Virus record (IMG/VR): IMGVR_UViG_3300001846_000239
Span: 14,281 to 78,280 of that record
Length of the DNA stretch: 64,000 nt
Origin: a virus
Strand: one strand, 5' to 3'
Shown piece after piece: positions 8,121 to 42,401 of this stretch (within the stretch, counting starts at the first letter, position 1; the number at the start of each line of letters is the position of its first letter). The position numbers and the translations under genes are program-made. The notes under the pieces were generated by a model that worked only from the letters and a program-made list of their open reading frames with translations, was not told the origin of the DNA and did not search any database.

Positions 8121-8154
8121 GTGTAAAAAAATTAAACTTTTTTGCAAAAAAGTG

Positions 8155-8183
8155 TGTACAAGACCTAAAAAACTTGGTATAAT
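8155..8183 (+). promoter_or_regulatory. Early promoter
   Basis: TGTACA-17 nt-TATAAT. Confidence 0.8.
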
Positions 8184-8218
8184 ATACACATATTGAAAAA
8201 TTGATAAGGAATTACATT

Positions 8219-9349
8219 ATGAAAAACATTAAAATATCAACCCAAAACATTCTTAAGGAACTGAAAAAGAACTATCCAGATCAGACTCAATTCCGTAAGA
8301 ATGTTATCGAATCCACAGCAAAAGCTATGGGTTATACTGGTAAAGACTTTTATCCAATGCTTACAGCAGAAAATAGAGTCAAGATTGGTACTTATGATTT
8401 AAGTGCTTTACTTCAAACAGTAGAAATTGACACGAGTGTTGTGGATATTTCTCCAAAGGCGAAAATGCAATCAATTGTTAACGACGAGAAGACTTTTGCA
8501 AAGGCTGATCCTACGTTTGTACCTTGGGGTGCATTCCACGATCTAGTAAAGATTATAAAGTCAGAGATGTTCTATCCTGTTTACGTTTCAGGTTTGTCTG
8601 GTAACGGTAAGACCTTTATGGTAGAACAAGCTTGTTCGAAACTGAATAAGGAGTTTATACGTGTTCAAATCAATCCTGAAACAGACGAAGACGATTTGCT
8701 TGGTGGCTTTAGGCTCATCAACGGAGAAACTGTCTTCTCTAAAGGACCAGTTCTTAAAGCAATGGAAAACGGTGCAATATTATTGCTCGACGAAATTGAT
8801 AGAGCTACAAATAAAATTATGTGTCTTCAAGGTATATTGGAAGGTAAGCCTGTTCTGGTTAAGAAAACGGGCGAAACGATTACTCCGGCGCCTGGATTCA
8901 ATGTTATAGCAACAGCTAACACAAAAGGTAAAGGTTCTGAAGACGGTAGGTTTACTGCTGCTTCTATTATCGATGAAGCTTTCCTTGAAAGGTTTACTGT
9001 TGCGATTGATCAGAAGTTTCCATCGCCTTCAATCGAAACAAAAATTCTTAACAACCACATGTCTAAGTTTGGTACTGAAGACGAAGATTTCGTCGAAAAG
9101 CTAATCACTTGGGCCGATATTATTAGGAAGACTTTCTATGATGATGGTGTCGACGAAGTTATTTCAACTCGTAGGTTATGTCACATAGCTCAAACTTACT
9201 CTATCTTTAAGAATAGAGCAAAAGCGATCGATCTATGTATCGCAAGGTTTGATGAAGATACCAAGTCAGCTTTCTTAGATCTCTACAGCAAAGTTGATGC
9301 CGGAGTAGAAACTCTCGAAGAAACAGAGGATAACGATGGCGAAATCTAA
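8219..9349 (+). CDS. cobS: MoxR-family AAA+ ATPase (phage CobS-like)
   Basis: GLSGNGKT, LLLDEIDR, ANTKGKG, FLERF; ATG 8219 follows AAGGA. Confidence 0.85.
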   Translation: MKNIKISTQNILKELKKNYPDQTQFRKNVIESTAKAMGYTGKDFYPMLTAENRVKIGTYDLSALLQTVEIDTSVVDISPKAKMQSIVNDEKTFAKADPTFVPWGAFHDLVKIIKSEMFYPVYVSGLSGNGKTFMVEQACSKLNKEFIRVQINPETDEDDLLGGFRLINGETVFSKGPVLKAMENGAILLLDEIDRATNKIMCLQGILEGKPVLVKKTGETITPAPGFNVIATANTKGKGSEDGRFTAASIIDEAFLERFTVAIDQKFPSPSIETKILNNHMSKFGTEDEDFVEKLITWADIIRKTFYDDGVDEVISTRRLCHIAQTYSIFKNRAKAIDLCIARFDEDTKSAFLDLYSKVDAGVETLEETEDNDGEI

Positions 9350-9629
9350 AAAGCCCGATTATAAATTTAACGAAGGAGCTCTTATTGAAGAGCTCCAAAA
9401 GTATATTGATTCTACATACGGTGCACATTACGGTCAAGGTGGTTTACAATCATCAGAAGTAATTATTGATCGTGGACATGGCCTAGGATTTTTTCTAGGA
9501 AATGTTGATAAGTATAATGCGCGGTACGGTAAAAAAGGAACTCCAGAAGATCATAGGAAAGATCTGATGAAGGTCTTACACTATGGATTGCTTGCGCTCT
9601 ATGAGCACGATCGATTAAACTCAAATTAA
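9336..9629 (+). CDS. DUF3310-like protein (T7 gp1.7-like nucleotide kinase family)
   Basis: HY...GF.LGNV.KY.ARYGKK...DL.K.LHY pattern. Confidence 0.55.
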   Translation: MAKSKKPDYKFNEGALIEELQKYIDSTYGAHYGQGGLQSSEVIIDRGHGLGFFLGNVDKYNARYGKKGTPEDHRKDLMKVLHYGLLALYEHDRLNSN

Positions 9630-9632
9630 GTA

Positions 9633-9661
9633 TGTACAATCATTGTAAAATGTGTTATAAT
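9633..9661 (+). promoter_or_regulatory. Early promoter for gene 45
   Basis: TGTACA-17 nt-TATAAT (TGTGT extension). Confidence 0.8.
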
Positions 9662-9690
9662 ACTGGTATCAAAATTAAAAAAGGTAAATT

Positions 9691-10356
9691 ATGAAAATAT
9701 CAAGTGAAACTATTAGTATCCTCAAAAACTTTGCGGGTATCAATTCGAATCTAGTCTTTAAACCTGGAAAGGAACTCAAGACTATTTCCGAAGCAAAAAC
9801 AATTATGGCAAAAGCCTCTATCCTAGAAGATTTTCCAGGTGAGTTCGGTGTATACGATCTCAACGAGTTTTTGTCATTGTATAATCTTATGAATGATCCG
9901 GATCTTACATTTACAGATCACTATTTGATCATGTCCGACGGATCTCAAAAGATTAAGTATTTCTATTCTGAGGTAGACATTCTTACACAACCAAGTAAGG
10001 ATATCAATATGCCAGAGTGTGAAGTTGTATTGGATCTGACTATGGAAAACCTACAGAAGATTCAAAAAGCGGCCGCTGTTCTTGGTCACTCGGAATTGAG
10101 TTTTAGTAGTAAAGGTGGTGACGTTGTAGCATCTGTCTTTAATGAAAAAGATGCGACTGCGAATACTTTTGATATCGATCTAGGTACTACATCTACTGAA
10201 ACATTCAACTACGTCTTTAGCATCGCTAACCTTAAGATGCTTCAAGGTGATTATAAAGTATCGATTTCATCTAAGCTAATTTCTAATTGGCGCAACGCGG
10301 ATAATCCTTTAGATTATTATATCGCTTTAGAGAAATCATCAAGTTTCGGTGTATAA
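9691..10356 (+). CDS. 45: Sliding clamp gp45
   Basis: LKNFAGINSNL, FGVYDLNEFL, YYIALEK. Confidence 0.93.
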   Translation: MKISSETISILKNFAGINSNLVFKPGKELKTISEAKTIMAKASILEDFPGEFGVYDLNEFLSLYNLMNDPDLTFTDHYLIMSDGSQKIKYFYSEVDILTQPSKDINMPECEVVLDLTMENLQKIQKAAAVLGHSELSFSSKGGDVVASVFNEKDATANTFDIDLGTTSTETFNYVFSIANLKMLQGDYKVSISSKLISNWRNADNPLDYYIALEKSSSFGV

Positions 10357-23910: not shown

Positions 23911-24154
23911 GTTTACAACACCAAAACAGACTTTAGACTGGTATGTAAAGTGGGTTGCATCTATTTTTGTACTGGCTGCAATGTCATTGCGAGGAATTGA
24001 AGGATTACAATTATGGGACCTTTTATTGTCCTCTATTGGTATTCTATTATGGTTATGGGTTTCTATTTTATGGAAAGACCGCGCATTAATTCTACTTAAT
24101 GGGGTAGGATTAATCTTTTTGGCTAAGAACTTTTTTGCGACACTTATGATATGA
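23903..24154 (+). CDS. Small three-TM membrane protein
   Basis: WYVKWVAS...W..VS.LW.DRALI.LN hydrophobic segments. Confidence 0.65.
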   Translation: MAEFTTPKQTLDWYVKWVASIFVLAAMSLRGIEGLQLWDLLLSSIGILLWLWVSILWKDRALILLNGVGLIFLAKNFFATLMI

Positions 24155-24564
24155 GAGTAGGAATAACTTTTTCTAGTTTTGATTTATTACATGCAGGTCA
24201 TGTACAAATGCTACGTGAAGCAAAGAGTCAATGTGATTATCTAATATGCGGATTACAATATGATCCATCAATAGATAGACTAGAAAAAAATCAACCAGTA
24301 CAATCGATGGTTGAAAGATATACACAATTGAATGCTATTAAATATGTAGATGAAATTATTCCTTATATGTTTGAGCACGAAGTTGTAGATATTCTGAGTC
24401 TATATAAACCAGACGTAAGAATTTTAGGTGACGAATACAGACACCAAGATTTTACTGGAAAAGAATTATGTCAACAATATAATATAGAATTATATTTTAA
24501 TAGTAGACGTCATAGATTCAGTACAACTAACTTGAGACAAGATATACAAAATGCAAAAAACTAA
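24151..24564 (+). CDS. Glycerol-3-phosphate cytidylyltransferase-like (TagD family)
   Basis: FDLLHAGH, ER...L...KYVD, RRHRFSTT. Confidence 0.85.
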   Translation: MRVGITFSSFDLLHAGHVQMLREAKSQCDYLICGLQYDPSIDRLEKNQPVQSMVERYTQLNAIKYVDEIIPYMFEHEVVDILSLYKPDVRILGDEYRHQDFTGKELCQQYNIELYFNSRRHRFSTTNLRQDIQNAKN

Positions 24565-32739: not shown

Positions 32740-32779
32740 TATAAATAGTATTGTACAAATTCTACTGGAGTGTTATAAT
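32740..32779 (+). promoter_or_regulatory. Tandem late promoter and early-type promoter
   Basis: TATAAATA 32740-47; TTGTACA 32751-57 and TGT-TATAAT 32774-79. Confidence 0.7.
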
Positions 32780-32785
32780 ACTACT

Positions 32786-34150
32786 ATGAAAAGTTTTTTA
32801 TCTTTTGAACCGTTAAACGAGGCGTCTAAGTTACAACCTAGTCAGCTAAAGAAACCGAATGCTGCAACTGGTGAAGCTCGGATCGATATCCTAGCAAGAC
32901 TTATTCGAGATGGAAAGCCTCTTGAATTAGCTAAAGGCGGAACCTTTACTGTAACTGAAGTTGAAGATGCCTTGGCGCAAATTGAAATCTTTAAAAAACT
33001 TGGTAAAGCATTTAATCTCCACGGAGACGGTAAAACAATTTCTACTTCCGAACTAGCCAAATCATCAGTATTTGGTGGCGGAAGTGGTGCAGGCGGTGGT
33101 ACATTAAATACAAAAATCACCGAATCACATCAGTGTGTTATATGTCAAGCAGTACTAGATCATGGTGTTCAGTCTAAGGAATACTTCGAAGATCCAAACG
33201 TGCTTAAAGATGCATATAAAAAAGTTGAAGTAGATGCATCCCTTGATGAAATTATGTCAGTTGATGAGACGTGGTTTCATTCGTCATATGAATCCGCTAT
33301 ATTACTTCTTAAAGAAGGTTATATTAACAAAAACCAAGTATTCCACAGAAATAGTAAACTGATGAATTTAGTCTATGCACAGAAAAATATCGCATATAAA
33401 AATTCTGATCAGAAACCTGTTAAAGATGATAAGTGGAATCCAGGTGATATATGGGCAATTGAAAAAGGATTTAATGTAAAAGATCTAAACATAGATTCTA
33501 TTGCCGGTTATAACAAATCATTATTACAAGCTTTCGTTGATAGAAAACTAGTTGGTATATCACTCAAGCTTGTGAAAAAGAAAGCAAAAGCTAAAGTATA
33601 TAATACACAAATTCCCCCCGATACAGATGATCATAAGTTAGAAAGAATCACATTCCAAGGCGATAAGCGTGGAACTTTCTGGTCAAATAAAACAGGAACA
33701 GTTTTCTTCGATTCTGGAAAAATGGATTTCAGAGCCGGAACGCTAGGCGGTGCAATCAAAGCAGAAATTATTCTGAAAACAGCACGCGGTGGTGGTGCAG
33801 GTTATGGTGTAATGCTAGATGCGGCTAAGCAAGTATTTAGAAAAACTATACCTACAAATAAAGCTATAAATAGAACAGCAAAAGATATTACTAAAAATAA
33901 TAAAAGAGCACTTAGTGTCTTTTGGAAGCTATATAGTCATTTTTATAAAAACGACACTTATGAAAACTTTGAGAAAGAAATCAGTAAGAAAGATGTCTAT
34001 TGGATCGGAGCCAAAATGCAAAGCTTGTATGTTTTGTATTATGTAGATACAAATACTGGCCCGAAAGCAAATAGATTTATTACTAAACTTGTTAATTACG
34101 CTGGATCTAAATTAGAAGATTCTAGTGTATATGTTAAGGTGTATGAATAA
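32786..34150 (+). CDS. Putative internal head protein with PD-(D/E)XK-like nuclease motifs
   Basis: Leader MKSFLSFEPLNEA; TESHQC, KWNPGDIW, GISLK. Confidence 0.5.
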   Translation: MKSFLSFEPLNEASKLQPSQLKKPNAATGEARIDILARLIRDGKPLELAKGGTFTVTEVEDALAQIEIFKKLGKAFNLHGDGKTISTSELAKSSVFGGGSGAGGGTLNTKITESHQCVICQAVLDHGVQSKEYFEDPNVLKDAYKKVEVDASLDEIMSVDETWFHSSYESAILLLKEGYINKNQVFHRNSKLMNLVYAQKNIAYKNSDQKPVKDDKWNPGDIWAIEKGFNVKDLNIDSIAGYNKSLLQAFVDRKLVGISLKLVKKKAKAKVYNTQIPPDTDDHKLERITFQGDKRGTFWSNKTGTVFFDSGKMDFRAGTLGGAIKAEIILKTARGGGAGYGVMLDAAKQVFRKTIPTNKAINRTAKDITKNNKRALSVFWKLYSHFYKNDTYENFEKEISKKDVYWIGAKMQSLYVLYYVDTNTGPKANRFITKLVNYAGSKLEDSSVYVKVYE

Positions 34151-35394
34151 TGAGATCATTTAAAAATTACGTACCGTTACAAGAAGCAGCAAAAAATACT
34201 CATATGACTCATATCGAGGATTTGATTCTTGACGGTGGTGTTAAGGGGGCGCGCCAAGCTATCATCGCACTCAGGTCGTTGCGAGATATGTTACAAGGTA
34301 ACGCAAAATCTGCAGTAGACGTTACAGTCAAGTGGGACGGTGCCCCCGCCGTATTTGCGGGTGAAGATCCAGAAACTGGAGAATTCTTCGTTGCGAAAAA
34401 AGGAATCTTTGCAAAGAATCCTAAGATTTATAAATCCCATGCTGATATTGATGCAGATACAAGTGGCGATCTAGCTAAAAAATTAAAGCTTGCATTTGAT
34501 AACCTAAAGGATTTAGGTATTAAAGGAGTTATTCAAGGTGATTTTATGTTCGACTCCTCAGATTTAAAAAAGGAGAAGATAAATGGAGTTACTCATATTG
34601 TGTTTCATCCTAACACTATTGCCTATGCAATACCTGTTGACAGTCCTCTTGCTAAGGAGATTAGATCAGCTAAGGTCGGAATTGTTTGGCATACTACATA
34701 CTCAGGAGCAACATTCGAAACGATGAGAGCTGAGTTTGGAAGAGAAATCGTTCCAAAATTAAGAAAATCTAAAAGCGTATGGATGCAAGATGCAACATTA
34801 CCCGATCTATCTGGTACTGCTACATTGACAAAAGCTGAAACTGACGAACTCAATAAGAACCTATCTAATGCTGGTAAAATGTTTAAGAAGATTGCAGCTA
34901 GCACATTGAAAGATATTGAATCGAATAAAGAGCTCAATATGATTATTAATATATACAATAATCGTAAGGTAAGAGAAGGTCAAAGAATCACGGATACAAA
35001 GAAACATGCAACCGGCCTTATTATGTTTGTGCAAGATCGTTATCAAAAAGAAATCGATAAAAGATCAAGTCAAGCTGGTAAAGATGTACAAATTGCAAAA
35101 AGAGACGAATTACTTAAGTTTTTTGATAAAAAGAATCTAAAAAACTTGCAAAATGTGTTCGATTTGCAAAATTTTGTTATTGATAGCAAATTAATTATTA
35201 TAAATAAACTAAACAAACTGAACAAAATTGGGACGTTTGTCAAAACTAAGTCCGGATTTAAGGTAACCAACCCAGAGGGTTTTGTTGCCATAGATCGTAT
35301 GGAAGGTGGAGCAGTTAAGCTTGTTGATAGATTAGAATTTTCTACTAACAACTTTAGCAAAGATATTATAAAAGGTTGGGACAATCCTAACTAA
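34150..35394 (+). CDS. Putative internal head protein, ligase-superfamily nucleotidyltransferase (DUF6267-like)
   Basis: Leader MRSFKNYVPLQEA; K61WDG, QGDFMF, E376GFVA, K390. Confidence 0.6.
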   Translation: MRSFKNYVPLQEAAKNTHMTHIEDLILDGGVKGARQAIIALRSLRDMLQGNAKSAVDVTVKWDGAPAVFAGEDPETGEFFVAKKGIFAKNPKIYKSHADIDADTSGDLAKKLKLAFDNLKDLGIKGVIQGDFMFDSSDLKKEKINGVTHIVFHPNTIAYAIPVDSPLAKEIRSAKVGIVWHTTYSGATFETMRAEFGREIVPKLRKSKSVWMQDATLPDLSGTATLTKAETDELNKNLSNAGKMFKKIAASTLKDIESNKELNMIINIYNNRKVREGQRITDTKKHATGLIMFVQDRYQKEIDKRSSQAGKDVQIAKRDELLKFFDKKNLKNLQNVFDLQNFVIDSKLIIINKLNKLNKIGTFVKTKSGFKVTNPEGFVAIDRMEGGAVKLVDRLEFSTNNFSKDIIKGWDNPN

Positions 35395-35411
35395 TGGGAA
35401 CCGAGGATCAG

Positions 35412-35795
35412 ATGAAATCTTTTAAAGAGCACAGCGCAGAACTATCTGAAGAAAGCGTAGACTTCTCTGAAGCTATGTCTTTGCAGCATAGAATGAAAAT
35501 GAAAGCTGCATTCAGAAAAAATAAAGCAAAGATTGCGCTAGGTAAAAAGAAAGCCGAACGTAAATTAGCGACTCCAGAAAAGCTTCAAAAACGAGCCGAG
35601 AGACACGCTCGTGATTTACTAGTTAAGAAAATCCTTAAGGATAAAGATAAGAGTGATCTATCTTATGCAGGCCGTGAAGGTATCGAAAAGAAATTAAAGA
35701 ATAAAAAAGCAGCAATCAAAAAGATTGCTAGAAAACTATTACCTCAAATTAAGAAGGCTGATAGAGCTAAATTAAAACAAAAAGGTGGTGAATAA
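35412..35795 (+). CDS. Lys/Ala-rich basic putative internal protein
   Basis: Leader MKSFKEHSAELSEE; SD GAGG. Confidence 0.6.
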   Translation: MKSFKEHSAELSEESVDFSEAMSLQHRMKMKAAFRKNKAKIALGKKKAERKLATPEKLQKRAERHARDLLVKKILKDKDKSDLSYAGREGIEKKLKNKKAAIKKIARKLLPQIKKADRAKLKQKGGE

Positions 35796-35799
35796 TATT

Positions 35800-37113
35800 A
35801 TGGAATTTAAGAGTTTTAGTGACTATTTGACGGAACAAAAGGGTGAAATTACTTTTGTATTTGGCCGATTTAATCCACCTACGACAGGACATGAAAAGCT
35901 TTTCGAGAAACTAAAGAAAGTTTCTGGAGGGTCATATCGAATATACGCGTCAAAATCGCAAGATCCAAAAAAGAACCCACTACCATTTAAAGTAAAAATT
36001 AAGTTTATGCGCAAAATGTTTCCTAAGCATGCGCGAAACATTATGGCTGATGCAGATGTAAGAACTGTATTGGATATTGCAGTAAAGCTTTATGATCAAG
36101 GGTTTACTAAAGTCCAAATGGTTGCTGGTAGTGATAGAGTAAAAGAATTTGATACACTATTAAACAAATATAATGGTGTAAAAGCAAGACACGGTTTCTA
36201 TAATTTTGAAGAAGGTGTTAAAGTTATTTCAGCTGGCGAAAGAGATCCAGACGCTGAAGGTGTTGCTGGTATGTCGGCCTCAAAATTGAGAGCCTTTGTT
36301 GCCGCAGGTGATCTACAAGGATTTGCTGATAATTCATTAGAAATTCCAGGTGATGGAATACAAACCTTATACTATGCCTTAAGAAAAGGCATGGGCCTCA
36401 AAAAAGAATCAACGAGAAAGCACATAGAATTACAACCAGTTTCTGAACATAGAGAAAAGTTTGTAGAAGGTTCTCTATTTAAAGCCGGTGATGAAGTTGT
36501 GTTAAAAGAAACAAATCAAGTTGGTATTATCGAAAGATGCGGAACAAACTTTCTTGTAGTTGAGTTCGGTCAATGGAAAAAGAGAGTCTGGTTAGATCAA
36601 GTCGAACTTGTAGAAAAGTGCGGTAGTGATCATAAGAAGCCGGCTAAAGAAGATAAAGAACCACAAAAGCGCAAAGCTGCATATCATAAAGATTTAAGTA
36701 AATCTACTCAAGATAAGCGTCAAGCTCATTTCAATAAGCAAGCAAAAAAAGATGACGATGATCCTAGTGCGTATAAACCTGCACCAGGTGATGCTCAAGC
36801 AAAAACAAAGCCATCTAAACATACTAAAAAATATCAACAAATGTTTGGTGAAGAAACTCTTTCACTGGCTGACTTTTTACTTGATGAAGGCCAGGCTGAT
36901 GCAGCATTAAAGAAAAAAGCTGAAAAGACTGGTATGCCATTAGGTATTCTAAGAAAGGTATTTGATAGAGGTGTTGCTGCATGGAGAACAGGTCATAGAC
37001 CTGGAACAAATTCAATTCAATGGGGATTAGCGAGAGTTAATTCTTTTGTTACTAAATCAAAAGGTACCTGGGGCGGGGCTGATAAAGACCTTGCTGCTAA
37101 AGTAAGGAGTTAA
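35800..37113 (+). CDS. HIGH-motif nucleotidyltransferase (phage cytidyltransferase-like) with C-terminal accessory domains
   Basis: Leader MEFKSFSDYLTEQ; FGRFNPPTTGH, VAGSDR, MSASK; C-terminal RG.AAW.TGHRPG...W..ARVNSF domain. Confidence 0.75.
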   Translation: MEFKSFSDYLTEQKGEITFVFGRFNPPTTGHEKLFEKLKKVSGGSYRIYASKSQDPKKNPLPFKVKIKFMRKMFPKHARNIMADADVRTVLDIAVKLYDQGFTKVQMVAGSDRVKEFDTLLNKYNGVKARHGFYNFEEGVKVISAGERDPDAEGVAGMSASKLRAFVAAGDLQGFADNSLEIPGDGIQTLYYALRKGMGLKKESTRKHIELQPVSEHREKFVEGSLFKAGDEVVLKETNQVGIIERCGTNFLVVEFGQWKKRVWLDQVELVEKCGSDHKKPAKEDKEPQKRKAAYHKDLSKSTQDKRQAHFNKQAKKDDDDPSAYKPAPGDAQAKTKPSKHTKKYQQMFGEETLSLADFLLDEGQADAALKKKAEKTGMPLGILRKVFDRGVAAWRTGHRPGTNSIQWGLARVNSFVTKSKGTWGGADKDLAAKVRS

Positions 37114-37114
37114 A

Positions 37115-37732
37115 ATGCAAAGGTTTAAAGATATTAAAGAATTAAAAGGTATAGTTGAAAATTACGACTATATCAACGAAATGACTGATACTCAACTTGA
37201 CGAGTATGTTAGAGGTTTAAGCGAAGAACAGCTTGACGAATTAATCGGTAGGTTGGTAAAAGGCGTTGGTAGACTAGCGGCTAAAGGTGCTAAAGCTGGT
37301 GGTAGCCTAGCAGTTAAGGGAGCCAAGGCCGGAGCCAAAAGAATGTCTGCTGACGGTAGAGCCGCTGCTGCTGAAAAGAAAGCTGCTAAACTAGAAAAGA
37401 AAAGAAAAGCTTTAGAGCGAATCCAAGCTGCGCGTGATAAAATCAGAGCAGAAAAAGAAGCTATTAAAAAGAAAAAAGATTCAATGCCACCAAATACTTT
37501 GGCTAAACTAAGAGCGAAACTAAAGCAAAAAGTTTCTAAAGTAAATGATGCAGAAAATAAACTAAAAGAATATAAAGAAGAAGACGAGGAAGAAGTAGAA
37601 GAGTCTTCAGCTTCATGGGCTAAGTCTTTAGAGAAGATCGCTAAGCAGAGACAGCTAGATAAAATCTCTGATAAAGATAAAGAAACCTTAATGAAGATTG
37701 CTGCAATGATGGCTAAAGAAAAGAAGAAGTAA
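37115..37732 (+). CDS. Lys/Ala-rich putative internal/core protein
   Basis: Leader MQRFKDIKE; repeated LxE sites. Confidence 0.6.
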   Translation: MQRFKDIKELKGIVENYDYINEMTDTQLDEYVRGLSEEQLDELIGRLVKGVGRLAAKGAKAGGSLAVKGAKAGAKRMSADGRAAAAEKKAAKLEKKRKALERIQAARDKIRAEKEAIKKKKDSMPPNTLAKLRAKLKQKVSKVNDAENKLKEYKEEDEEEVEESSASWAKSLEKIAKQRQLDKISDKDKETLMKIAAMMAKEKKK

Positions 37733-37733
37733 T

Positions 37734-37970
37734 ATGAAATCTTTTAAAGAACAAGCTAATTTAGATGAAGCTCCATTAGTCATGAAAGACTTAGATATGG
37801 TTAAGACTTTATTTCATAAAATTGAATCAGACTTAGCAAAAAATGTAAGATCCAATAAAAGTGAAAAGAACTGGCCTATTCTAAAGCAATTAGCTAGTAT
37901 TGCAGGTTATGGTATTACTAAAAAAGGCCAGACTTCAGGCAAGTCTTACAGATATGATTTAAAAAAATGA
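37734..37970 (+). CDS. Small putative internal protein
   Basis: Leader MKSFKEQANLDEA. Confidence 0.6.
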   Translation: MKSFKEQANLDEAPLVMKDLDMVKTLFHKIESDLAKNVRSNKSEKNWPILKQLASIAGYGITKKGQTSGKSYRYDLKK

Positions 37971-38485
37971 TTACGTTTAAAGACTACATTACTGAGCAAA
38001 AAAAGATTAAGTGGCTTAAAAAGCCCGATGGCTATATTGGTAATAATAAAAAAGTATTTAAACACGTTTCTTCAGATGGTAAGTTTGAGATTCGTTTATC
38101 TGGTATGGATAGTTCTCGTAAGAACAAAGATGGTAGTCAGAAAGTAATGCCTACATTGTTTGATATGAGTGGCCATACACCAAGGCATCCAGTTACAGCA
38201 TATAAAAATGTAGCTGCAGCTAAGAAAGATGCTCAAATATGGGCAGATAGACATTGGACTATTACTGAAGGCGAAGGTAAATATAAAGGCGAAACATGGG
38301 AAGATGGTTATAAAAGGCGAGTTGTAAAAACAACCGATCCTGAGCATAAAGAAAAAGGATATAATTGGAGAATCAAAGGCAAAGAAAGACCTGAGATTTC
38401 AATTAAATTATATAAACAAAAACCAGATTTTGCTGAATTTAAAAAGCAAATGAAGCGAGTTGCGGGGCACGAATTCGGTGGATAG
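37967..38485 (+). CDS. Putative internal protein, two ITE-delimited modules
   Basis: Leader MITFKDYITEQ; second ITEGEG site. Confidence 0.6.
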   Translation: MITFKDYITEQKKIKWLKKPDGYIGNNKKVFKHVSSDGKFEIRLSGMDSSRKNKDGSQKVMPTLFDMSGHTPRHPVTAYKNVAAAKKDAQIWADRHWTITEGEGKYKGETWEDGYKRRVVKTTDPEHKEKGYNWRIKGKERPEISIKLYKQKPDFAEFKKQMKRVAGHEFGG

Positions 38486-39146
38486 TTTTAAAGAACATTA
38501 TGATATAATGGAAGGTGTTAATGATCCTGCTATATTTAAAGCAATATTTTTAGCAGGTGGCCCAGGAAGCGGTAAATCGTTTGTTGTGGGTAAAACATCT
38601 TTGATGGCATTAGGATTTAAATTAATTAATTCCGATGATGCCTTTGAAAAAGGTTTGAAAAAAGCTGGATTGACAATGAATCCAGAAGATATATTTTCAG
38701 TTCAAGGCCAGGAAGTAAGAGCTAAAGCGAAAGCGCTTACTGGTAAAAAAATGAATATGGCTTTGAGAGGAAGAAACGGCATTGTAATCGATGGTACTGG
38801 TAAAGACTATGCTAAGATTAAAAAGCAAGTTGATATGCTAAGAAATATCGGTTATGCTGTTCATATGATTTTTGTAAATACAGATTTAGAAACAGCTTTA
38901 GACAGAAATCAGTCTAGACCAAGAAGTCTACCTGATGCGGAAGTCGAAAAGATGTGGAAAAATGTACAAAAGAATATCGGTAAATTCCAAGGGCTATTTA
39001 GGAATAGACTGATTATTGTTGATAACTCTAAGGGAGCAGATATTGAAACTGCAACTTTAGAAGCTTATAAAGATATTATGGCATGGTCAAAAAGACCACC
39101 CGAAAACGCAATAGCAATTAAATGGATAAAGAGTCAAACAAAATGA
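38478..39146 (+). CDS. P-loop kinase (PNK/zeta-toxin-like)
   Basis: GTG start, leader MDSFKEHYDIMEG; GGPGSGKS, NSDD, IDGTG, RN.SR.R lid. Confidence 0.75.
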   Translation: MDSFKEHYDIMEGVNDPAIFKAIFLAGGPGSGKSFVVGKTSLMALGFKLINSDDAFEKGLKKAGLTMNPEDIFSVQGQEVRAKAKALTGKKMNMALRGRNGIVIDGTGKDYAKIKKQVDMLRNIGYAVHMIFVNTDLETALDRNQSRPRSLPDAEVEKMWKNVQKNIGKFQGLFRNRLIIVDNSKGADIETATLEAYKDIMAWSKRPPENAIAIKWIKSQTK

Positions 39147-39352
39147 AAAATTTTAAAACAATAAGAGAAGCCTTGAAGAATCCTTACAAAGGAAAACCAG
39201 AACGTGATCTAAAGCGCAAGCTCGATTCCTTTGAATCGCAACTTCAAGACTTAATTAAAAAGAGTCGAGGACGTCAGCGAAGAGAAATCGAAGGTGAAAT
39301 CCGAGATATGGAAACAAAAGTGCAACAGGTTAGAGCTGCACTAAAGGATTAA
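39143..39352 (+). CDS. Small coiled-coil putative internal protein
   Basis: Leader MKNFKTIREA. Confidence 0.55.
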   Translation: MKNFKTIREALKNPYKGKPERDLKRKLDSFESQLQDLIKKSRGRQRREIEGEIRDMETKVQQVRAALKD

Positions 39353-39356
39353 TATA

Positions 39357-39725
39357 ATGCATTCTTTTTTAGAACATATAGAAGAGAGGTTTGGTCTATA
39401 TGAAGGTGTTCATGTACCATTGGAACAACCAATGATTGAAATCGAAGAGCAAGAGCTGAATAAGCCAAAACGCTCTAGCGGTAAAAAGAAGTATGTAGTA
39501 TATGTTAAAAATCCTAAAACAGGGAATATTAAGAAAATAGAATTTGGGGACGAAAAAGGTGGTCTTACTTCAAAAATTAACGATAGAGAAGCAGCTAGAA
39601 ACTTCGCATCACGACATAACTGCGATACGAAGACAGATAAATTATCTCCAGGATATTGGGCTTGCAGATTGCCTAAATATGCGAAAGACTTGGGACTTAA
39701 AGGCGGTGGAAACTATTTTTGGTAA
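39357..39725 (+). CDS. Basic putative internal protein
   Basis: Leader MHSFLEHIEE; KKIEFG...NFASRHNC...YWAC. Confidence 0.6.
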   Translation: MHSFLEHIEERFGLYEGVHVPLEQPMIEIEEQELNKPKRSSGKKKYVVYVKNPKTGNIKKIEFGDEKGGLTSKINDREAARNFASRHNCDTKTDKLSPGYWACRLPKYAKDLGLKGGGNYFW

Positions 39726-39996
39726 GCCATATTGGGAAAACGGAGAAATTCGTATCTTCGACCCTACGGTTGAGGATAGCGAATTTGTTTGGCATAGAGA
39801 TGATGAAAACAGAGAAATAGAGATTTTAGAAGGCGAGGGTTGGCAATTCCAACTTCAAGGTTGTTTACCTTGGCTTTTAAAAAAGGGTATGGTATTTAGA
39901 ATTACTAAATTAGAATATCATCGATTAATAAAAGGCGTTACGCCACTAAAATGTAGGGTGTGTAGATATGACCACAGCAGCACAACAACGGGCTGA
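39706..39996 (+). CDS. Small cupin-like protein
   Basis: Probable GTG start 39706; WHRD...IEILEG.GW.F...YHRLIKG. Confidence 0.5.
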   Translation: METIFGKPYWENGEIRIFDPTVEDSEFVWHRDDENREIEILEGEGWQFQLQGCLPWLLKKGMVFRITKLEYHRLIKGVTPLKCRVCRYDHSSTTTG

Positions 39997-40267
39997 ACAA
40001 GCGGCAAGACTTGACAGAATCGAAGAAAAAATCGATAAAATGTCAGACGTTATTATTTCTTTAGCAAGAGCTGAAGAAAGAATTGCTACTATGGCCGAAT
40101 TTGGTAAACAACAAGGAGAGCAGATTCTAACTCTTATAAATAGAGTTGATAGGCTTGAAATATTGGTGAGGGAGAATGCCCAAACCGTAAACGTAATTAA
40201 TAAATTATTCTGGATAGTAATTGCTGGCGCCGCCACAGCTATCACAGGAATGCTTTTCATACAATAG
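39968..40267 (+). CDS. Coiled-coil protein with C-terminal TM
   Basis: RLDRIEEKIDK...LARAEERI; hydrophobic C-terminus. Confidence 0.6.
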   Translation: MTTAAQQRAEQAARLDRIEEKIDKMSDVIISLARAEERIATMAEFGKQQGEQILTLINRVDRLEILVRENAQTVNVINKLFWIVIAGAATAITGMLFIQ

Positions 40268-40277
40268 GAGAACTAAT

Positions 40278-40988
40278 ATGAAACTTAAAGATGCAAAAAC
40301 TTTGAGCATTGCTGAGGCCGTTAGCGATGTACTCGAAGGTAAAGTAAAAAAGGAAGAAGTAAAATATCCACACGATATGTTTCATCCAGAAACTGGTGAG
40401 AAAGAAGTAGCCAAAAACGAAGCAGAGCATAAAGCCCTTGCTAAGAAAGGTTACACTCACGAGAAACCAGAAGTTGACGAAGTAGCAGAGCCTAAAGCTA
40501 AAGGTGAAAAAGACTTTAAAGACGCTCATGTTGCAGCTGTGTCTGGTGAAAAAGAAGATGGTACAGTTGTTAAAGAAGCTGAAGAAAAAGAAGAAGAAGA
40601 AGAAGAAGAAGTTGAAGAAGCTAAATCTAAGTTTTCAAAGTCGCTTCTTAAGAAAGCAAGTGACATCGCTCTTTCAATGAGTGGTAACATGACTGGTGCT
40701 GTTAAGAAAATCGAAAAAATTAAAAAAGGTTTGTCTGACGACCCAGAAGTTAAAGCTGCATTGCAACTAGCTAACGAAGAAGTAACTAAAGAAATTATGG
40801 ATGAAGCTTATGCAATGAATGAAGCCAAAGATAAAGTTGCAGAAGATAAAGAAAGATATCAAAAATTCTTCCAAAAAGCACTGAAAAAGTTTGGTGTTGA
40901 TTCACCTGCTCAACTCAAAGGTGATAAAAAGAAAGAGTTTTTTGATTACGTAGATGCAAACTACGAGGCTGATGACGAAGAAGACTAA
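40278..40988 (+). CDS. Acidic prohead-core/scaffold-like protein
   Basis: SD AGGAG; Glu/Lys-rich with many xxE sites; C-terminal YQKFF..ALKKFGV.SP..L...KKEFF. Confidence 0.55.
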   Translation: MKLKDAKTLSIAEAVSDVLEGKVKKEEVKYPHDMFHPETGEKEVAKNEAEHKALAKKGYTHEKPEVDEVAEPKAKGEKDFKDAHVAAVSGEKEDGTVVKEAEEKEEEEEEEVEEAKSKFSKSLLKKASDIALSMSGNMTGAVKKIEKIKKGLSDDPEVKAALQLANEEVTKEIMDEAYAMNEAKDKVAEDKERYQKFFQKALKKFGVDSPAQLKGDKKKEFFDYVDANYEADDEED

Positions 40989-41010
40989 AATTATCTGATA
41001 TAGATAATAT

Positions 41011-41382
41011 ATGATGAAAATATTTGACGAGTTGACAAACAGGAACTTTGAGCTCTATGCGTCACAGCATTACAATAACCCGGAATGCTGTGACGTTGAA
41101 GAGTTCAAGGAAGATTTAACCAGGTTTAAGTATCTAAAAAGATTACTTAGACGCTATGAGCAATCTGGTGATCTGCAAGAGCGATTAATACTAAATCACA
41201 TTATTGTTATTTTTAATGTATTTGGTATTAAAGCAGCAAATAGAATGATTTGGTTCAAAGTAGAACCTGAACATTATTCTACGCTAAAAACATTTTTAGT
41301 GTTCTTGCATTATATGCCAGAGGATTATAAAGTAGAAATCCCTCTAGATAAAAACGTTATTGAGAGGTTAAGGAAAATTTAA
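41011..41382 (+). CDS. Conserved T4-like hypothetical protein
   Basis: YASQHY.NP.C...EF.EDL.RFKY.KRLL, ERLILNHII. Confidence 0.7.
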   Translation: MMKIFDELTNRNFELYASQHYNNPECCDVEEFKEDLTRFKYLKRLLRRYEQSGDLQERLILNHIIVIFNVFGIKAANRMIWFKVEPEHYSTLKTFLVFLHYMPEDYKVEIPLDKNVIERLRKI

Positions 41383-41975
41383 TGAGTATAGTATCAAGAA
41401 CAGCTGATTTATTCTATGCGTTTAGATTCCTAAAGCTATTAGTAACGCCTTGGGAAAAAACTACTGCATTTGAATTAGGCATTATCGATAAAGATGGTAA
41501 CACCTTAAAGAAAAGCAAAGATAGAACTACTTCTCAAGAAAGGTCTGCATATACTGTTTTTCATAGATTAGTATTTAATCTGAAAAGACTATTGGGCAAA
41601 GTGCCAGGTGGTTCATCAAGATTAGCTACTTATGCTTCGGCTTTGTTTTTAATTAAAGAACATGCTAATCTAACTGAAGATGAAATCAGAGATGTACTAA
41701 ACAATATATTTGAAGATCTTGAAGAAACAATTGATCTATCAGAAAGTAGTGCATGGTTTGAAAAGAATAATAAACTTGCGCCAGGAACTTATAAGCTGGT
41801 TCAAGAAGTAGCATCACCACAAACTGGTGAAGTTATTGCGCATATAAATACTAATGTTAAGGCATTAGATTTTGTAGAACCTCACGGTTCTATATTTGGT
41901 TTAAATGTATACCAAGTGGAACATACATTAACAAAACAAAAAATACTTATTACGAGTATGGATATAAAAAGATGA
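41382..41975 (+). CDS. Conserved T4-like hypothetical protein
   Basis: FRFLKLL.TPWEK..AF.LGIID..G. Confidence 0.7.
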   Translation: MSIVSRTADLFYAFRFLKLLVTPWEKTTAFELGIIDKDGNTLKKSKDRTTSQERSAYTVFHRLVFNLKRLLGKVPGGSSRLATYASALFLIKEHANLTEDEIRDVLNNIFEDLEETIDLSESSAWFEKNNKLAPGTYKLVQEVASPQTGEVIAHINTNVKALDFVEPHGSIFGLNVYQVEHTLTKQKILITSMDIKR

Positions 41976-42184
41976 AGACATTTAAAGACATGTGGGAAGA
42001 CGCGGCAGCTACATCAGTAGCGTCAGGTGACATTGCTTTACCTGCCGATGCAGTTCATGATAAAAAGAAAAAGAAAAAAGATTTGTATGACGGGAGAACG
42101 AAAGCCGGTCGTGCGTTCATAGAAAGGATATTGGCTAGAAGAAAAGCCGCTGAACAGAAAAGGATCGATAATGAAGAAGTTTAA
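41972..42184 (+). CDS. Small putative internal protein
   Basis: Leader MKTFKDMWEDA; DGRTK motif. Confidence 0.6.
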   Translation: MKTFKDMWEDAAATSVASGDIALPADAVHDKKKKKKDLYDGRTKAGRAFIERILARRKAAEQKRIDNEEV

Positions 42185-42401
42185 TGATATTAGAGAAGAC
42201 GCTTTTGATAAATCAAAAGAAAAGAATGTTGACCAACTGAATAAAAAGCTTCAGAGTATGTCTCAGCATATTAACAACTTAGAAAAGTTGGACAAGCAAG
42301 GTGAAGGCAAAGGCGAAATGGCTAAAGAGATTAAAGTCTTCAAATCTAAATTCTTTGAACTGAATAAGGCTTTAGCAAAATTAGAAAATAGATTAGTGTA
42401 A
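42171..42401 (+). CDS. Small coiled-coil putative internal protein
   Basis: Leader MKKFNDIREDA. Confidence 0.55.
   Translation: MKKFNDIREDAFDKSKEKNVDQLNKKLQSMSQHINNLEKLDKQGEGKGEMAKEIKVFKSKFFELNKALAKLENRLV

What the first reader, a model, noticed from the sequence alone, without database searches (positions are those of the whole stretch)
32786..39146. Payload enzymes form a nuclease / ligase / nucleotidyltransferase / kinase set: candidate pre-packaged nucleic-acid repair or counter-defence system
Seen: 34150-35394 has the ordered motifs of covalent nucleotidyltransferases (ligase/capping family): I K61WDG, III QGDF, IV E376GFV, V K390. 35800-37113 is a HIGH-type NTase (FGRFNPPTTGH), whose motif resembles NMNAT/NadR-type GRFxPxHxGH. 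38478-39146 is a P-loop kinase like the PNK kinase module (GGPGSGKS, RxxxR lid). 32786-34150 has NPGDIW/SLK restriction-fold-like motifs. Established: T4 Pnk plus Rnl1 repair tRNA broken by PrrC, and some phages rebuild NAD+ with NMNAT-type enzymes. Inference: an injected kit acting before phage transcription, for example to repair RNA cut by host defences, restore NAD+, or nucleotidylate host targets. I know no description of this four-enzyme set as one system.
Basis: partly seen in the sequence, partly recalled or inferred. Interest (0 to 1): 0.85.

Follow-up and report, generated by a model that had tools for sequence, protein, structure and literature searches.

The report
Capsid-tagged ligase-like enzyme set
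A marine T4-like phage carries a conserved, often fused pair of enzymes (an unrecognised RNA-ligase-shaped protein, DUF6267, and an NMNAT/PPAT-like adenylyltransferase) plus a P-loop kinase; all three have T4-style head-targeting leaders and are probably injected with the DNA, but the proposed fourth "nuclease" and the specific repair role are not established.

Summary
Three of the four enzyme calls hold.

- **DUF6267 (34150-35394):** the ligase motifs are invariant across 111 diverged relatives (K61-x-D63-G64, D131, E376-G377, K390). A confident model (pLDDT 93.8) is closest to RNA ligases. It has no OB domain, and profile comparison with Rnl2 found nothing.
- **35800-37113:** a HIGH-motif adenylyltransferase, nearest to PPAT and NMNAT, followed by DUF5824.
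- **38478-39146:** a P-loop kinase. It is no closer to T4 Pnk than to adenylate kinase.
- **32786-34150:** a conserved E...PGD...SLK pattern, but no nuclease fold match. The family is missing from five related phage loci.

It is not a four-gene system. The core is DUF6267 plus the adenylyltransferase. They are adjacent in all six related phage loci examined and fused in either order in S-PM2 and in metagenomic proteins. The kinase joins only sometimes.

Packaging is plausible. The evidence is (L/I)xE leaders, a TATAAATA late promoter at 32740, a gp21-type protease in the same record, and published virion proteomes of four cyanophages that contain the adenylyltransferase homolog. However, DUF6267 was not listed in the S-SZBM1 proteome.

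The function (end sealing, NAD-type chemistry, or DNA ligation) remains inferred. This scan has already noted the same set on other phage DNA.

The parts
32740..32747 (+). T4-type late-promoter consensus TATAAATA, 38 nt upstream of the first gene of the block
   Evidence: It lies in the intergenic gap just before the ATG at 32786. All 13 copies in the window are on the + strand, but the total count is not above chance (10.5 expected), so this rests on position alone.
32786..34150 (+). 454-aa protein of unknown fold (phrog_1462) with leader MKSFLSFEPLNE. It is fast-evolving and not part of the conserved core.
   Evidence: invariant E113, D215-KWNPGD221, S259-L-K261; pLDDT 86, residues 1-11 disordered; no known fold; family absent from five related loci.
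34150..35394 (+). DUF6267: a covalent-nucleotidyltransferase (RNA-ligase-like) domain with a helical insert of about 130 aa (228-355) and no OB domain. Leader MRSFKNYVPLQE.
   Evidence: pLDDT 93.8; NgrRnl Z 8.4; Trl1 and T4 Rnl2 7.8; REL1 7.7; AlphaFold DB 'RNA ligase domain-containing protein', E 7e-6; BFVD: RNA ligases.
35394..35795 (+). 133-aa lysine-rich protein. The leader MKSFKEHSAELSE begins at Met7 (35412). A small ORF occupies the same position between DUF6267 and the nucleotidyltransferase in C48C1, Melnitz and DLP_6.
   Evidence: (phrog_23027).
35800..37113 (+). HIGH-motif adenylyltransferase-like domain (about 17-215), a weak SH3/KOW-like stretch, a basic linker and DUF5824 (300-434). 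Leader MEFKSFSDYLTE.
   Evidence: DUF5824 3.9e-16; CTP_transf_like 19.5 bits, below the cut-off of 21; phrog_3041 4.5e-90; PPAT 4e-5, NMNAT 8e-4.
37115..37732 (+). 205-aa charged, coiled-coil-like protein with leader MQRFKDIKE. Function unknown.
37734..37970 (+). 78-aa protein with leader MKSFKEQANLDE. Function unknown.
   Evidence: Its first 17 nt are identical to those of the leader at 35412.
37967..38485 (+). 172-aa protein with leader MITFKDYITE. Its C-terminal 64 aa recur as the last module of a DUF6267-nucleotidyltransferase-DUF5824 fusion protein.
   Evidence: 55% identity to P0129 residues 789-852, E 7e-20.
38478..39146 (+). P-loop kinase of the NMP-kinase/AAA_33/Zeta type, acceptor unknown. 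GTG start, leader (M)DSFKEHYDIME.
   Evidence: (58% identity to the N-terminal half of P0127).

Best explanation
The real unit is a two-enzyme module, sometimes extended by a kinase.

**Components**
- DUF6267 is a lysine-nucleotidylating enzyme with the fold of ATP-dependent RNA ligases. K61 in KWDG is the predicted AMP acceptor. D131, E376-G377 and K390 correspond to motifs III, IV and V. It has no OB domain and carries a 130-aa helical insert.
- Its constant partner is a HIGH-motif adenylyltransferase, related to PPAT and NMNAT, followed by DUF5824. The two are adjacent in all six related phage loci examined and fused in some relatives.
- This lineage adds a P-loop kinase.

**Delivery (inferred)**
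1. The genes are transcribed late, from TATAAATA at 32740.
2. Each protein starts with a leader of about 10-12 residues like the T4 capsid-targeting sequence, ending in (L/I)-x-Glu.
3. The leader directs the protein into the prohead core. The phage's gp21-type protease cuts it off, and the proteins leave with the DNA.

**Function (inferred)**
After injection, the ligase-like enzyme seals broken polynucleotide ends (RNA, or RNA/DNA nicks). The kinase prepares 5' ends or adenine nucleotides. The adenylyltransferase acts on the same substrate or supplies a nucleotide cofactor.

**What is shown and what is inferred**
- Shown: motifs, fold, gene linkage, leaders, promoter consensus, protease gene, and virion detection of the adenylyltransferase in relatives.
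- Inferred: packaging in this phage, substrates, and the repair role.

**Rough odds**
- Ligase fold: 0.85.
- DUF6267-adenylyltransferase functional link: 0.85.
- Capsid cargo in this phage: 0.65.
- Polynucleotide end-joining as the function: 0.4.

The overall confidence of 0.4 is for the whole chain, including the end-joining function.
For: **Ligase fold**
- Motif columns are invariant in 111 diverged sequences.
- The AF2 model has pLDDT 93.8 and pTM 0.91.
- Of 48,161 PDB representatives, the six best are all RNA ligases (5cot Z 8.4, 6n0t 7.8, 2hvq 7.8, 1xdn 7.7, 1s68 7.7, 9r3w 7.6). DNA ligases follow at Z 5.5-6.5.
- Foldseek hits an AlphaFold DB 'RNA ligase domain-containing protein' at 7e-6.
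- In BFVD, the named hits outside the DUF6267/cytidyltransferase family and one mislabelled cyanophage entry are mostly RNA ligases or kinase-ligases, with a few others.

**Linkage**
- DUF6267 is in 466 phage records and the nucleotidyltransferase in 561. Counts among cyanophage records are nearly identical: Synechococcus 366 and 375, Cyanophage 61 and 61, Prochlorococcus 24 and 24.
- The two genes are adjacent in C48C1, Melnitz, HTVC008M, S-SZBM1 and DLP_6, and are one ORF in the isolate S-PM2.
- Metagenomic fusions occur in both orders: P0129, P0239, P0252 one way and P0199, P0212, P0264 the other.
- The kinase is adjacent to DUF6267 in HTVC008M. It is joined to DUF6267 in P0127.

**Cargo**
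- Of 11 ORFs in the 113-kb record that match the leader pattern, 10 lie in this block. The nucleotidyltransferase and the kinase do not match that pattern but carry similar leaders seen by eye.
- An (L/I/V/M)xE leader is present in 79 of 111 DUF6267 relatives and 54 of 61 P0001 relatives.
- Residues 1-12 are disordered in both models.
- TATAAATA lies at 32740. A gp21-type protease is in the same record at E 4.6e-45.
- T4 internal proteins share only a capsid-targeting sequence (PMC3012670).
- The adenylyltransferase homolog was found in virions of S-SZBM1, S-SCSM1, S-CBWM1 and S-CREM2 (PMC9146016, PMC9602691, PMC10665884). In S-SZBM1 that protein has a leader (MGLMRFRQFIIE).
Against: **Ligase fold**
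- No sequence-level link to known ligases. The DUF6267 profile found no PDB ligase. hhalign against T4 Rnl2 alone aligned only motif IV at E 0.4, and against an Rnl2 family profile it found nothing.
- Foldseek against the PDB gave nothing better than E 0.09.
- Z 8.4 is only at the level the tool calls common. The case rests on the consistency of the hits together with the motifs.

**Cargo**
- DUF6267 (S-SZBM1_141) is not listed in the S-SZBM1 virion proteome, and the cyanophage DUF6267 proteins lack the leader. Packaging of the ligase-like enzyme may therefore be lineage-specific or wrong.
- The published proteome authors note that abundant non-structural proteins can contaminate purified virions.

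**Repair role**
- No 3'-end-healing enzyme (phosphatase or cyclic phosphodiesterase) was identified.
- The kinase is not specifically Pnk-like.
- No known repair pathway uses a HIGH-motif nucleotidyltransferase.
- The P0127 kinase-DUF6267 fusion rests on one 2.9-kb contig and keeps an internal leader, so it may be a read-through of two adjacent genes.
Confidence: 0.4

Rival explanations
1. Virion-delivered adenine-nucleotide or NAD-type cofactor chemistry. The HIGH enzyme makes an ADP-linked cofactor (NAD+, dephospho-CoA or similar). The kinase makes its phosphorylated precursor or recycles AMP, following NadR or adenylate-kinase logic. DUF6267 either uses that cofactor as its nucleotidyl donor, as NAD+-dependent ligases do, or transfers AMP to a target that is not a polynucleotide.
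For: The best solved relatives of the nucleotidyltransferase are PPAT and NMNAT, and there is a weak NadR-NMNAT hit. The kinase profile is nearest to adenylate kinase. Published papers read the virion enzyme as NMNAT-like (PMC9602691, PMC10665884). Fusion of a ligase fold to a cofactor-making enzyme would make sense if the ligase consumes that cofactor.
Against: It is far below the NMNAT family threshold (19 bits against 341). No Nampt, Nudix or NR-transport partner was seen near it. DUF6267 lacks any recognisable NAD-ligase domain Ia, and its nearest folds are ATP-dependent RNA ligases. Earlier scan follow-ups on the same nucleotidyltransferase family also found no NAD pathway; those are unchecked leads.
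Confidence: 0.2
2. DUF6267 is the 'missing' DNA ligase of Kyanoviridae-type phages. It would seal Okazaki fragments and recombination nicks in the cytoplasm as part of the replication module.
For: It sits directly after gp43-uvsX-gp41 in every genome looked at. No PF01068 ligase domain was found in the window's own record, in four complete relatives or in S-SZBM1. No PF01653 domain was found in the own record or the same four relatives, and no T4 gp30 relative in those five records. It is a near-universal gene of cyanomyoviruses.
Against: It has no OB domain or motif VI, which all DNA ligases have. RNA ligases outrank DNA ligases structurally. Stenotrophomonas phage DLP_6 has the DUF6267-nucleotidyltransferase block and also a canonical PF01068 ligase. 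The late promoter and capsid-type leader fit poorly with a replication enzyme. The obligatory HIGH-motif partner is unexplained.
Confidence: 0.15
3. The proteins are not capsid cargo. The shared MKSFKE-type N-termini would be a translation-initiation or recombination cassette of a late, hypervariable gene block, and the enzymes would act in the infected cell late in the cycle. T4 Rnl1 (gp63) has such a late role in tail-fibre attachment.
For: The first 17 nt are identical between two leaders (35412 and 37734), which suggests nucleotide-level copying. DUF6267 is absent from the one proteome in which I could map it. Cyanophage orthologs work without the leader. Virion detections of the adenylyltransferase could be carry-over, as the proteome authors themselves caution (PMC9602691).
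Against: The leader is conserved at the protein level across homologs that are only 40-50% identical. It ends in the (L/I)xE pattern that I recall as the T4 gp21 cleavage rule (the rule is from memory). It is disordered in the models. The adenylyltransferase was detected in four independent virion preparations. The block also contains small, highly charged proteins typical of internal head proteins.
Confidence: 0.25
4. One reading: a four-enzyme kit (nuclease, ligase, nucleotidyltransferase and Pnk-type kinase) acting as one system.
For: All four genes lie in one co-directional block behind one late promoter, and all carry the same type of leader. A conserved E/D/K pattern sits on predicted helix-strand-strand elements in the 454-aa protein.
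Against: No fold match to any nuclease. The P0001 family was not found in five related loci that have the other genes, and tblastn finds it in only 7 phage records. The kinase is present in 10 records and is unlinked in Melnitz.
Confidence: 0.1

Closest known systems
T4 Pnkp + Rnl1 (and Rnl2) RNA repair; bacterial Pnkp/Hen1; fungal Trl1 (ligase-kinase-CPD)
   Same: A P-loop kinase travels with an ATP-dependent ligase-fold enzyme in a phage. The kinase and the ligase-like protein are adjacent in HTVC008M and joined in one metagenomic ORF. The best structural neighbours of DUF6267 are these ligases (NgrRnl, Trl1, T4 Rnl2, REL1, T4 Rnl1).
   Different: There is no detectable sequence homology to any Rnl family. 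No 3' phosphatase or cyclic phosphodiesterase module was seen. The kinase is not specifically Pnk-like. The constant partner is a HIGH-motif adenylyltransferase, which none of these systems has. The proteins carry capsid-type leaders.
Naegleria gruberi RNA ligase NgrRnl (PDB 5cot) and the Rnl5 type
   Same: It is the best fold match (Z 8.4, 189 residues aligned, rmsd 3.9). In both proteins the nucleotidyltransferase domain ends the polypeptide soon after motif V, with no C-terminal OB domain.
   Different: 12% identity. DUF6267 has a 130-aa helical insert between motifs IIIa and IV and a short N-terminal helix with an invariant H-x-x-H-x-E-D segment, instead of the N-terminal domain of NgrRnl.
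T4 internal proteins IPI-III and Alt (capsid-targeting-sequence cargo)
   Same: Unrelated proteins in a hypervariable block share a short N-terminal leader ending in (L/I)xE. A gp21-type prohead protease is in the same genome, and a late promoter precedes the block (PMC3012670).
   Different: The cargo here includes three enzymes of nucleotide and nucleic-acid chemistry, not restriction inhibitors or an ADP-ribosyltransferase. Packaging is not shown for this phage. The T4 leader sequence and cleavage rule are quoted from my own knowledge.
PPAT (CoaD) and NMNAT (NadM/NadR/NadD) HIGH-motif adenylyltransferases
   Same: Both signature motifs are present and align (GxFxPxTxGH and SxSxxR). The family profile hits PPAT at 4e-5 and Francisella NadM at 8e-4.
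   Different: It scores far below family-specific thresholds. It carries extra SH3-like and DUF5824 modules. It is a phage family that travels with a ligase-like gene. The acceptor substrate is unknown.
Cyanophage 'cytitidyltransferase' / virion NMNAT-like protein (S-SZBM1_140, S-SCSM1 ORF91, S-CREM2 ORF154)
   Same: These are homologs of 35800-37113 and were detected in purified virions (PMC9146016, PMC9602691, PMC10665884).
   Different: The three papers read here (PMC9146016, PMC9602691, PMC10665884) discuss it alone, as an auxiliary metabolic or NAD enzyme. In the passages and term searches I ran, none mentions the ligase-like neighbour, the fusions or the leader.

Membership tests
Covalent nucleotidyltransferases (ATP-dependent ligase / capping superfamily) | Motif I KxDG with an invariant lysine | tested here: met
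   K61, D63 and G64 are invariant in 111 sequences.
Covalent nucleotidyltransferases (ATP-dependent ligase / capping superfamily) | Motifs III, IIIa, IV and V in order with ligase-like spacing | tested here: met
   D131, F152/N155, E376-G377 and K390 are invariant or nearly so. The I-III and III-IIIa spacings of about 70 and 21 resemble those of T4 Rnl2 (K35, E99, F119, seen as invariant columns).
Covalent nucleotidyltransferases (ATP-dependent ligase / capping superfamily) | Nucleotidyltransferase fold | tested here: met
   Model pLDDT 93.8. The top six of 48,161 chains are RNA ligases at Z 7.6-8.4. AlphaFold DB RNA-ligase-domain entry at E 7e-6. The Z values alone are borderline.
Covalent nucleotidyltransferases (ATP-dependent ligase / capping superfamily) | Self-nucleotidylation on the motif I lysine | not testable with these tools
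   Needs a biochemical assay.
DNA ligases / mRNA capping enzymes | C-terminal OB domain carrying motif VI | tested here: not met
   The protein ends 24 residues after K390, and the model shows no OB domain.
Rnl2 family (Pfam RNA_ligase PF09414) | Sequence-profile homology | tested here: not met
   No Pfam RNA_ligase hit. hhalign of the DUF6267 profile against a 37-sequence Rnl2 profile gave probability 0.06.
HIGH-motif nucleotidyltransferases (CTP_transf_like) | (H/T)xGH and ISxTxxR-type motifs; profile match | tested here: met
   G22, R23, P26, T28, H31 and S159, R164 are invariant. PPAT 4e-5 with both motifs aligned. P0003 alone scores 19.5 bits against a cut-off of 21, but the fused relatives P0129, P0239, P0252, P0199 and P0264 pass at 23.6-30.8 bits, while P0212 (19.8) does not.
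NMNAT (NadR/NadM type) | Family-level model score | tested here: not met
   TIGR01526 19.4 bits against a cut-off of 341.
Polynucleotide 5'-kinase (T4 Pnk type) | Specific similarity beyond the generic P-loop kinase fold | tested here: inconclusive
   Walker A, an Asp about 20 residues later and an RxxxR lid are present. T4 Pnk at E 0.022 ranks below adenylate kinase, PSTK and Zeta toxin. phrog_505 'polynucleotide kinase' scores 4e-9.
PD-(D/E)xK nucleases | Restriction-endonuclease-like core fold with the catalytic motif on adjacent strands | tested here: inconclusive
   E113, D221 and S259-x-K261 are invariant and lie on a helix and on or beside two strands of the model. No nuclease appears in the PDB, AlphaFold DB or Atlas searches. 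Only weak leads exist: McrC E 0.0095 and HaeIII/HpaII clusters at 0.83.
T4-type capsid-targeted cargo | N-terminal leader ending in (L/I)xE, plus a gp21-type protease in the genome | tested here: met
   for the leaders. Peptidase_S77 at E 4.6e-45 in the same record.
T4-type capsid-targeted cargo | Physical presence in virions and removal of the leader | not testable with these tools
   Literature covers relatives only. The adenylyltransferase was detected in four cyanophage virion proteomes. DUF6267 was not listed for S-SZBM1 (PMC9146016, PMC9602691, PMC10665884).

The most novel reading that the evidence does not exclude
DUF6267 founds a new family of RNA-ligase-fold enzymes whose obligatory partner is a HIGH-motif adenylyltransferase. 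That partner makes or regenerates the ligase's nucleotidyl donor, or adenylylates the same broken end. In heterotroph-infecting marine T4-like phages, the pair and a kinase would be pre-loaded into the capsid. End repair of phage or host nucleic acid would then start before any phage gene is expressed.
Probability: 0.15. Interest if true: 0.85.

Novelty: new variant of a known kind. Interest (0 to 1): 0.6.

Why it matters
- **Abundance.** DUF6267 and its adenylyltransferase partner occur in 466 and 561 of 50,697 phage records, mostly cyanomyoviruses, and are annotated in S-PM2 as a T4-like gene cluster. They also occur in SAR11- and OM43-infecting myophages. The family spans more than 2,600 clusters at 50% identity and thousands of near-identical marine sequences. 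These are among the most abundant viruses in the sea.
- **Gap in the literature.** No paper in the searched library mentions DUF6267. The partner is discussed only as a stray 'cytidylyltransferase/NMNAT' found in virions.
- **A testable hypothesis.** Recognising a ligase-fold enzyme tied to that protein gives a concrete biochemical test for two long-standing unknowns.
- **Wider meaning.** If the capsid-delivery reading holds, it extends the T4 internal-protein idea from inhibitors to a catalytic nucleic-acid or nucleotide toolkit.
- **Missing ligase.** It also bears on why these phages lack a recognisable DNA ligase.

Tried and rejected
- **Megablast of the block against phage records:** no match.
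- **phmmer or profile searches of all four proteins against PDB sequences:** nothing for P0001, P0002 or P0003 as single sequences. The DUF6267 profile hit only low-complexity helices.
- **Foldseek against the PDB with the DUF6267 model:** no match below E 0.09, although DNA ligases led by probability.
- **hhalign of DUF6267 against Rnl2:** against T4 Rnl2 alone, only motif IV aligned, at E 0.4. Against an Rnl2 family profile there was nothing.
- **PADLOC and NCBIfam scans:** no defence or specific family assignment.
- **Complex prediction of DUF6267 with the adenylyltransferase domain:** no verdict (score 0.00). This is not evidence either way.
- **P0001 fold searches in four libraries:** no known fold.
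- **Search for a canonical DNA or RNA ligase:** none in the window's own record or in four complete relatives. This raised the 'missing DNA ligase' rival. It was then weakened because DLP_6 has both genes.
- **2H-phosphoesterase HxT/S motif pairs in the small neighbouring ORFs:** nothing convincing.
- **Literature:** no hits for 'DUF6267' or for 'cytitidyltransferase' with 'cyanophage'. The Syn9 transcriptome paper (PMC5029184) is not held, so the expression class of the orthologs could not be checked.

Full report
**Context.** The window is the replication and nucleotide-metabolism arm of a marine T4-like myovirus. It carries uvsW-type helicase, gp46/47, a clamp loader, gp43, a primase, UvsX, gp41, ThyX and NrdA, at about 35% GC with all genes on the + strand. 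The closest phage records are Kyanoviridae-type: Phage C48C1, the OM43 phage Melnitz, and Pelagibacter phage HTVC008M. The record holding the window is 113 kb and about 63% complete.

**The observation.** All four ORFs are real.

*DUF6267 (34150-35394).*
- It is Pfam DUF6267 (E 2.9e-105). No paper in the library mentions that name.
- An exhaustive HMMER search found 2,670 clusters at 50% identity.
H21, K84, N155, Y159, G177, H181 and N271 are also invariant.
- AlphaFold2 with that alignment gave pLDDT 93.8 and pTM 0.91. The model has a beta-rich core interrupted by a helical insert (228-355). There is nothing after motif V except a short helix, so there is no OB domain.
- Foldseek against the PDB was weak, with DNA ligases leading at E about 0.1-0.4.
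- The Foldseek-independent VIA-align scan of 48,161 chains put RNA ligases in the first six places: NgrRnl 5cot at Z 8.4 over 189 residues, fungal Trl1 at 7.8 and 7.6, T4 Rnl2 at 7.8 and 7.7, and T. brucei REL1 at 7.7. T4 Rnl1, archaeal Rnl3 and a series of DNA ligases followed at Z 5.5-6.9.
- Z around 8 is not exceptional by the tool's own calibration. The consistency of the family among the hits is what counts.
- Foldseek against AlphaFold DB clusters gave an 'RNA ligase domain-containing protein' at E 7e-6.
- In BFVD, the named hits outside the DUF6267/cytidyltransferase family and one mislabelled cyanophage entry are mostly RNA ligases or kinase-ligases, for example Atu_ph07 at 4e-3. A few other names (mRNA 5'-phosphatase, SET domain) also appear.
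- Against this, sequence profiles do not connect DUF6267 to known ligases.
- I conclude that it is a covalent nucleotidyltransferase of RNA-ligase-like architecture (about 0.85). It is not a member of any described Rnl family.

*Nucleotidyltransferase (35800-37113).*
- Pfam gives DUF5824 (3.9e-16) and a sub-threshold CTP_transf_like hit. PHROGs calls it 'cytidyltransferase' (4.5e-90).
- In seven diverged sequences the FGRFNPPTxGH and SASKxR motifs are invariant.
- The profile finds PPAT (4e-5, both motifs aligned) and NMNAT (8e-4) among solved structures.
- It is a HIGH-motif adenylyltransferase-like enzyme. It is not a family-level NMNAT, and its acceptor is unknown.

*Kinase (38478-39146, GTG start).*
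- AAA_33 and Zeta_toxin match it.
- A small family profile hits adenylate kinase, PSTK, Zeta toxin and T4 Pnk, all weakly (0.002-0.02).
- It is a P-loop kinase, and the Pnk label is not specific.

*The 454-aa protein (32786-34150).*
- It has no Pfam family. It evolves much faster than its neighbour: 75% down to 45% identity among the best 120 hits, against 94% down to 82% for DUF6267.
- E113, D215-KWNPGD221 and S259-L-K261 are invariant.
- A pLDDT-86 model found no solved fold (best Z 3.8). AlphaFold DB returned only uncharacterised or automatically named relatives, and the ESM Atlas only unnamed viral clusters.
- The nuclease reading is an unproven motif resemblance.

**Is it one system?** The DUF6267-nucleotidyltransferase pair is.
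- *Record counts.* The two genes occur in 466 and 561 phage records, with near-identical counts among cyanophage records.
- *Neighbour order.* They are neighbours in the same order, just downstream of gp41, in C48C1, Melnitz, HTVC008M and S-SZBM1. They are also neighbours in Stenotrophomonas phage DLP_6.
- *Fusions.* In the isolate S-PM2 they are one 591-aa protein. Metagenomic proteins fuse them in both orders. AlphaFold DB also lists long 'cytidyltransferase-like' proteins whose N-terminal halves match the DUF6267 model.
- *A fifth component.* One fusion (P0129) also ends with the C-terminal module of the 172-aa ORF at 37967.

The other two genes are not tied to the pair in the same way.
- The kinase is a facultative member. 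It appears in 10 phage records, next to the pair in HTVC008M and about 50 kb away in Melnitz.
- The single kinase-DUF6267 'fusion' (58% and 59% identical to the two window proteins) sits on one 2.9-kb contig. It retains an internal leader, MGKTFTDFITEQ, so it may be two adjacent genes read through.
- The P0001 family is not found in any of the five related loci searched with its profile. The ORFs in its position upstream of DUF6267 there are not detectably homologous to it.
- The four genes are therefore distributed independently in part.

**Is it payload?**
- *Leaders in this phage.* Ten ORFs between 32786 and 42401 match a leader pattern of the type M-(K/R)-S-F-K-x. The nucleotidyltransferase and the kinase carry close variants of it. 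All of these run into an (L/I/M)-x-E at about residues 8-13. In the whole 113-kb record, 10 of the 11 ORFs matching the pattern lie in this block.
- *Resemblance to T4.* This resembles the T4 capsid-targeting sequence and the gp21 cleavage rule, which I quote from memory. A review confirms that T4 internal proteins share only such a targeting sequence (PMC3012670).
- *Leaders in relatives.* The leader is conserved in distant homologs: 79 of 111 DUF6267 and 54 of 61 P0001 relatives. It is disordered in both models.
- *Promoter and protease.* A TATAAATA box lies in the intergenic gap 38 nt before the first gene. A gp21-type protease is encoded in the same record.
- *Proteomes of relatives.* The adenylyltransferase homolog was detected in purified virions of S-SZBM1 (with two downstream gene products), S-SCSM1, S-CBWM1 and S-CREM2. 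The authors of those papers already proposed that it is carried into the cell (PMC9146016, PMC9602691, PMC10665884).
- *Caveats.* The S-SZBM1 DUF6267 (gene 141) is not in that proteome. It lacks the leader, as does the S-PM2 protein, while the S-SZBM1 adenylyltransferase has one. This is consistent with leader-dependent packaging, but it rests on one case. The TATAAATA count in the window is not above chance.
- I put capsid delivery in this phage at about 0.65.

**Mechanism.** The most economical reading is an end-joining enzyme with accessory nucleotide-handling enzymes, delivered with the genome.
- The fold neighbours are nick-sealing and tRNA-repair ligases, and a kinase partner echoes Pnk-Rnl systems.
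- There is no end-healing phosphatase, the kinase is generic, and no known repair pathway uses a HIGH-motif enzyme. I hold polynucleotide sealing at only about 0.4.
- Rival: NAD-type or adenine-nucleotide chemistry. It is favoured by the PPAT/NMNAT and adenylate-kinase affinities.
- Rival: the missing replicative DNA ligase. It is favoured by gene position and by the absence of PF01068 and PF01653 domains and of gp30 relatives in complete relatives. It is weakened by the missing OB domain and by DLP_6, which has both the block and a canonical ligase.
- Rival: a purely cytoplasmic late function.

**Novelty.** The virion 'NMNAT-like' protein is published. The ligase-fold nature of DUF6267, its fusion with that protein and the shared leaders are not mentioned in the parts of the papers I read or searched. 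This scan has already flagged the same set on several other phage genomes, including one follow-up with the same reading. Those are unchecked AI notes and I did not count them as evidence.

Noticed in passing
window 24151-24564: A second, unrelated HIGH-motif enzyme begins MRVGITFSSFDLLHAGHVQMLREAK, which looks like a TagD/RfaE-type cytidylyltransferase. It lies in a different operon. It should not be confused with the 'cytidyltransferase' of this finding.
   Followed up: no
window 35412-35428 and 37734-37750: The first 17 nt of two leaders are identical (ATGAAATCTTTTAAAGA). This hints that the leader spreads by recombination as a nucleotide cassette.
   Followed up: partly
window 39122-42401: More leader-bearing small ORFs lie downstream: 39143, 39357, 41972, 42171. 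They are mixed with ORFs that lack the leader pattern, including a membrane-anchored 99-aa protein (39968) and a very acidic 255-aa protein (40221).
   Followed up: no
own record G000:C1:80565-80954 (outside the window): This is the only ORF outside the block that matches the leader pattern (internal MKTFNEATNELLDF).
   Followed up: no
L011/L012 (Stenotrophomonas phage DLP_6, KU682439.2): This soil T4-like phage carries the DUF6267-small ORF-cytidyltransferase block next to cobS/thyX. It also carries a canonical ATP-dependent DNA ligase domain (PF01068, E 2.5e-15) at 126448-127011.
   Followed up: partly
Literature: S-SCSM1 ORF180 (supplement of PMC9602691): A 165-aa cyanophage ORF is reported there with an HHpred match to T4 DNA ligase (99.9%). 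That is too short for a whole ligase. It may be a stand-alone ligase domain and is worth checking against DUF6267, which lacks an OB domain.
   Followed up: no
L009 (S-SZBM1) 7307-8680 and 9375-9974: Genes 139 (457 aa, hypothetical) and 136, just downstream of the cytidylyltransferase, are also in the published virion proteome. The whole neighbourhood may therefore encode head cargo in cyanophages too.
   Followed up: partly
window 32786-34150 versus 34150-35394: The two adjacent genes evolve at very different rates among close marine relatives. The best 120 database hits run from 75% down to 45% identity for the first gene and from 94% down to 82% for DUF6267.
   Followed up: partly
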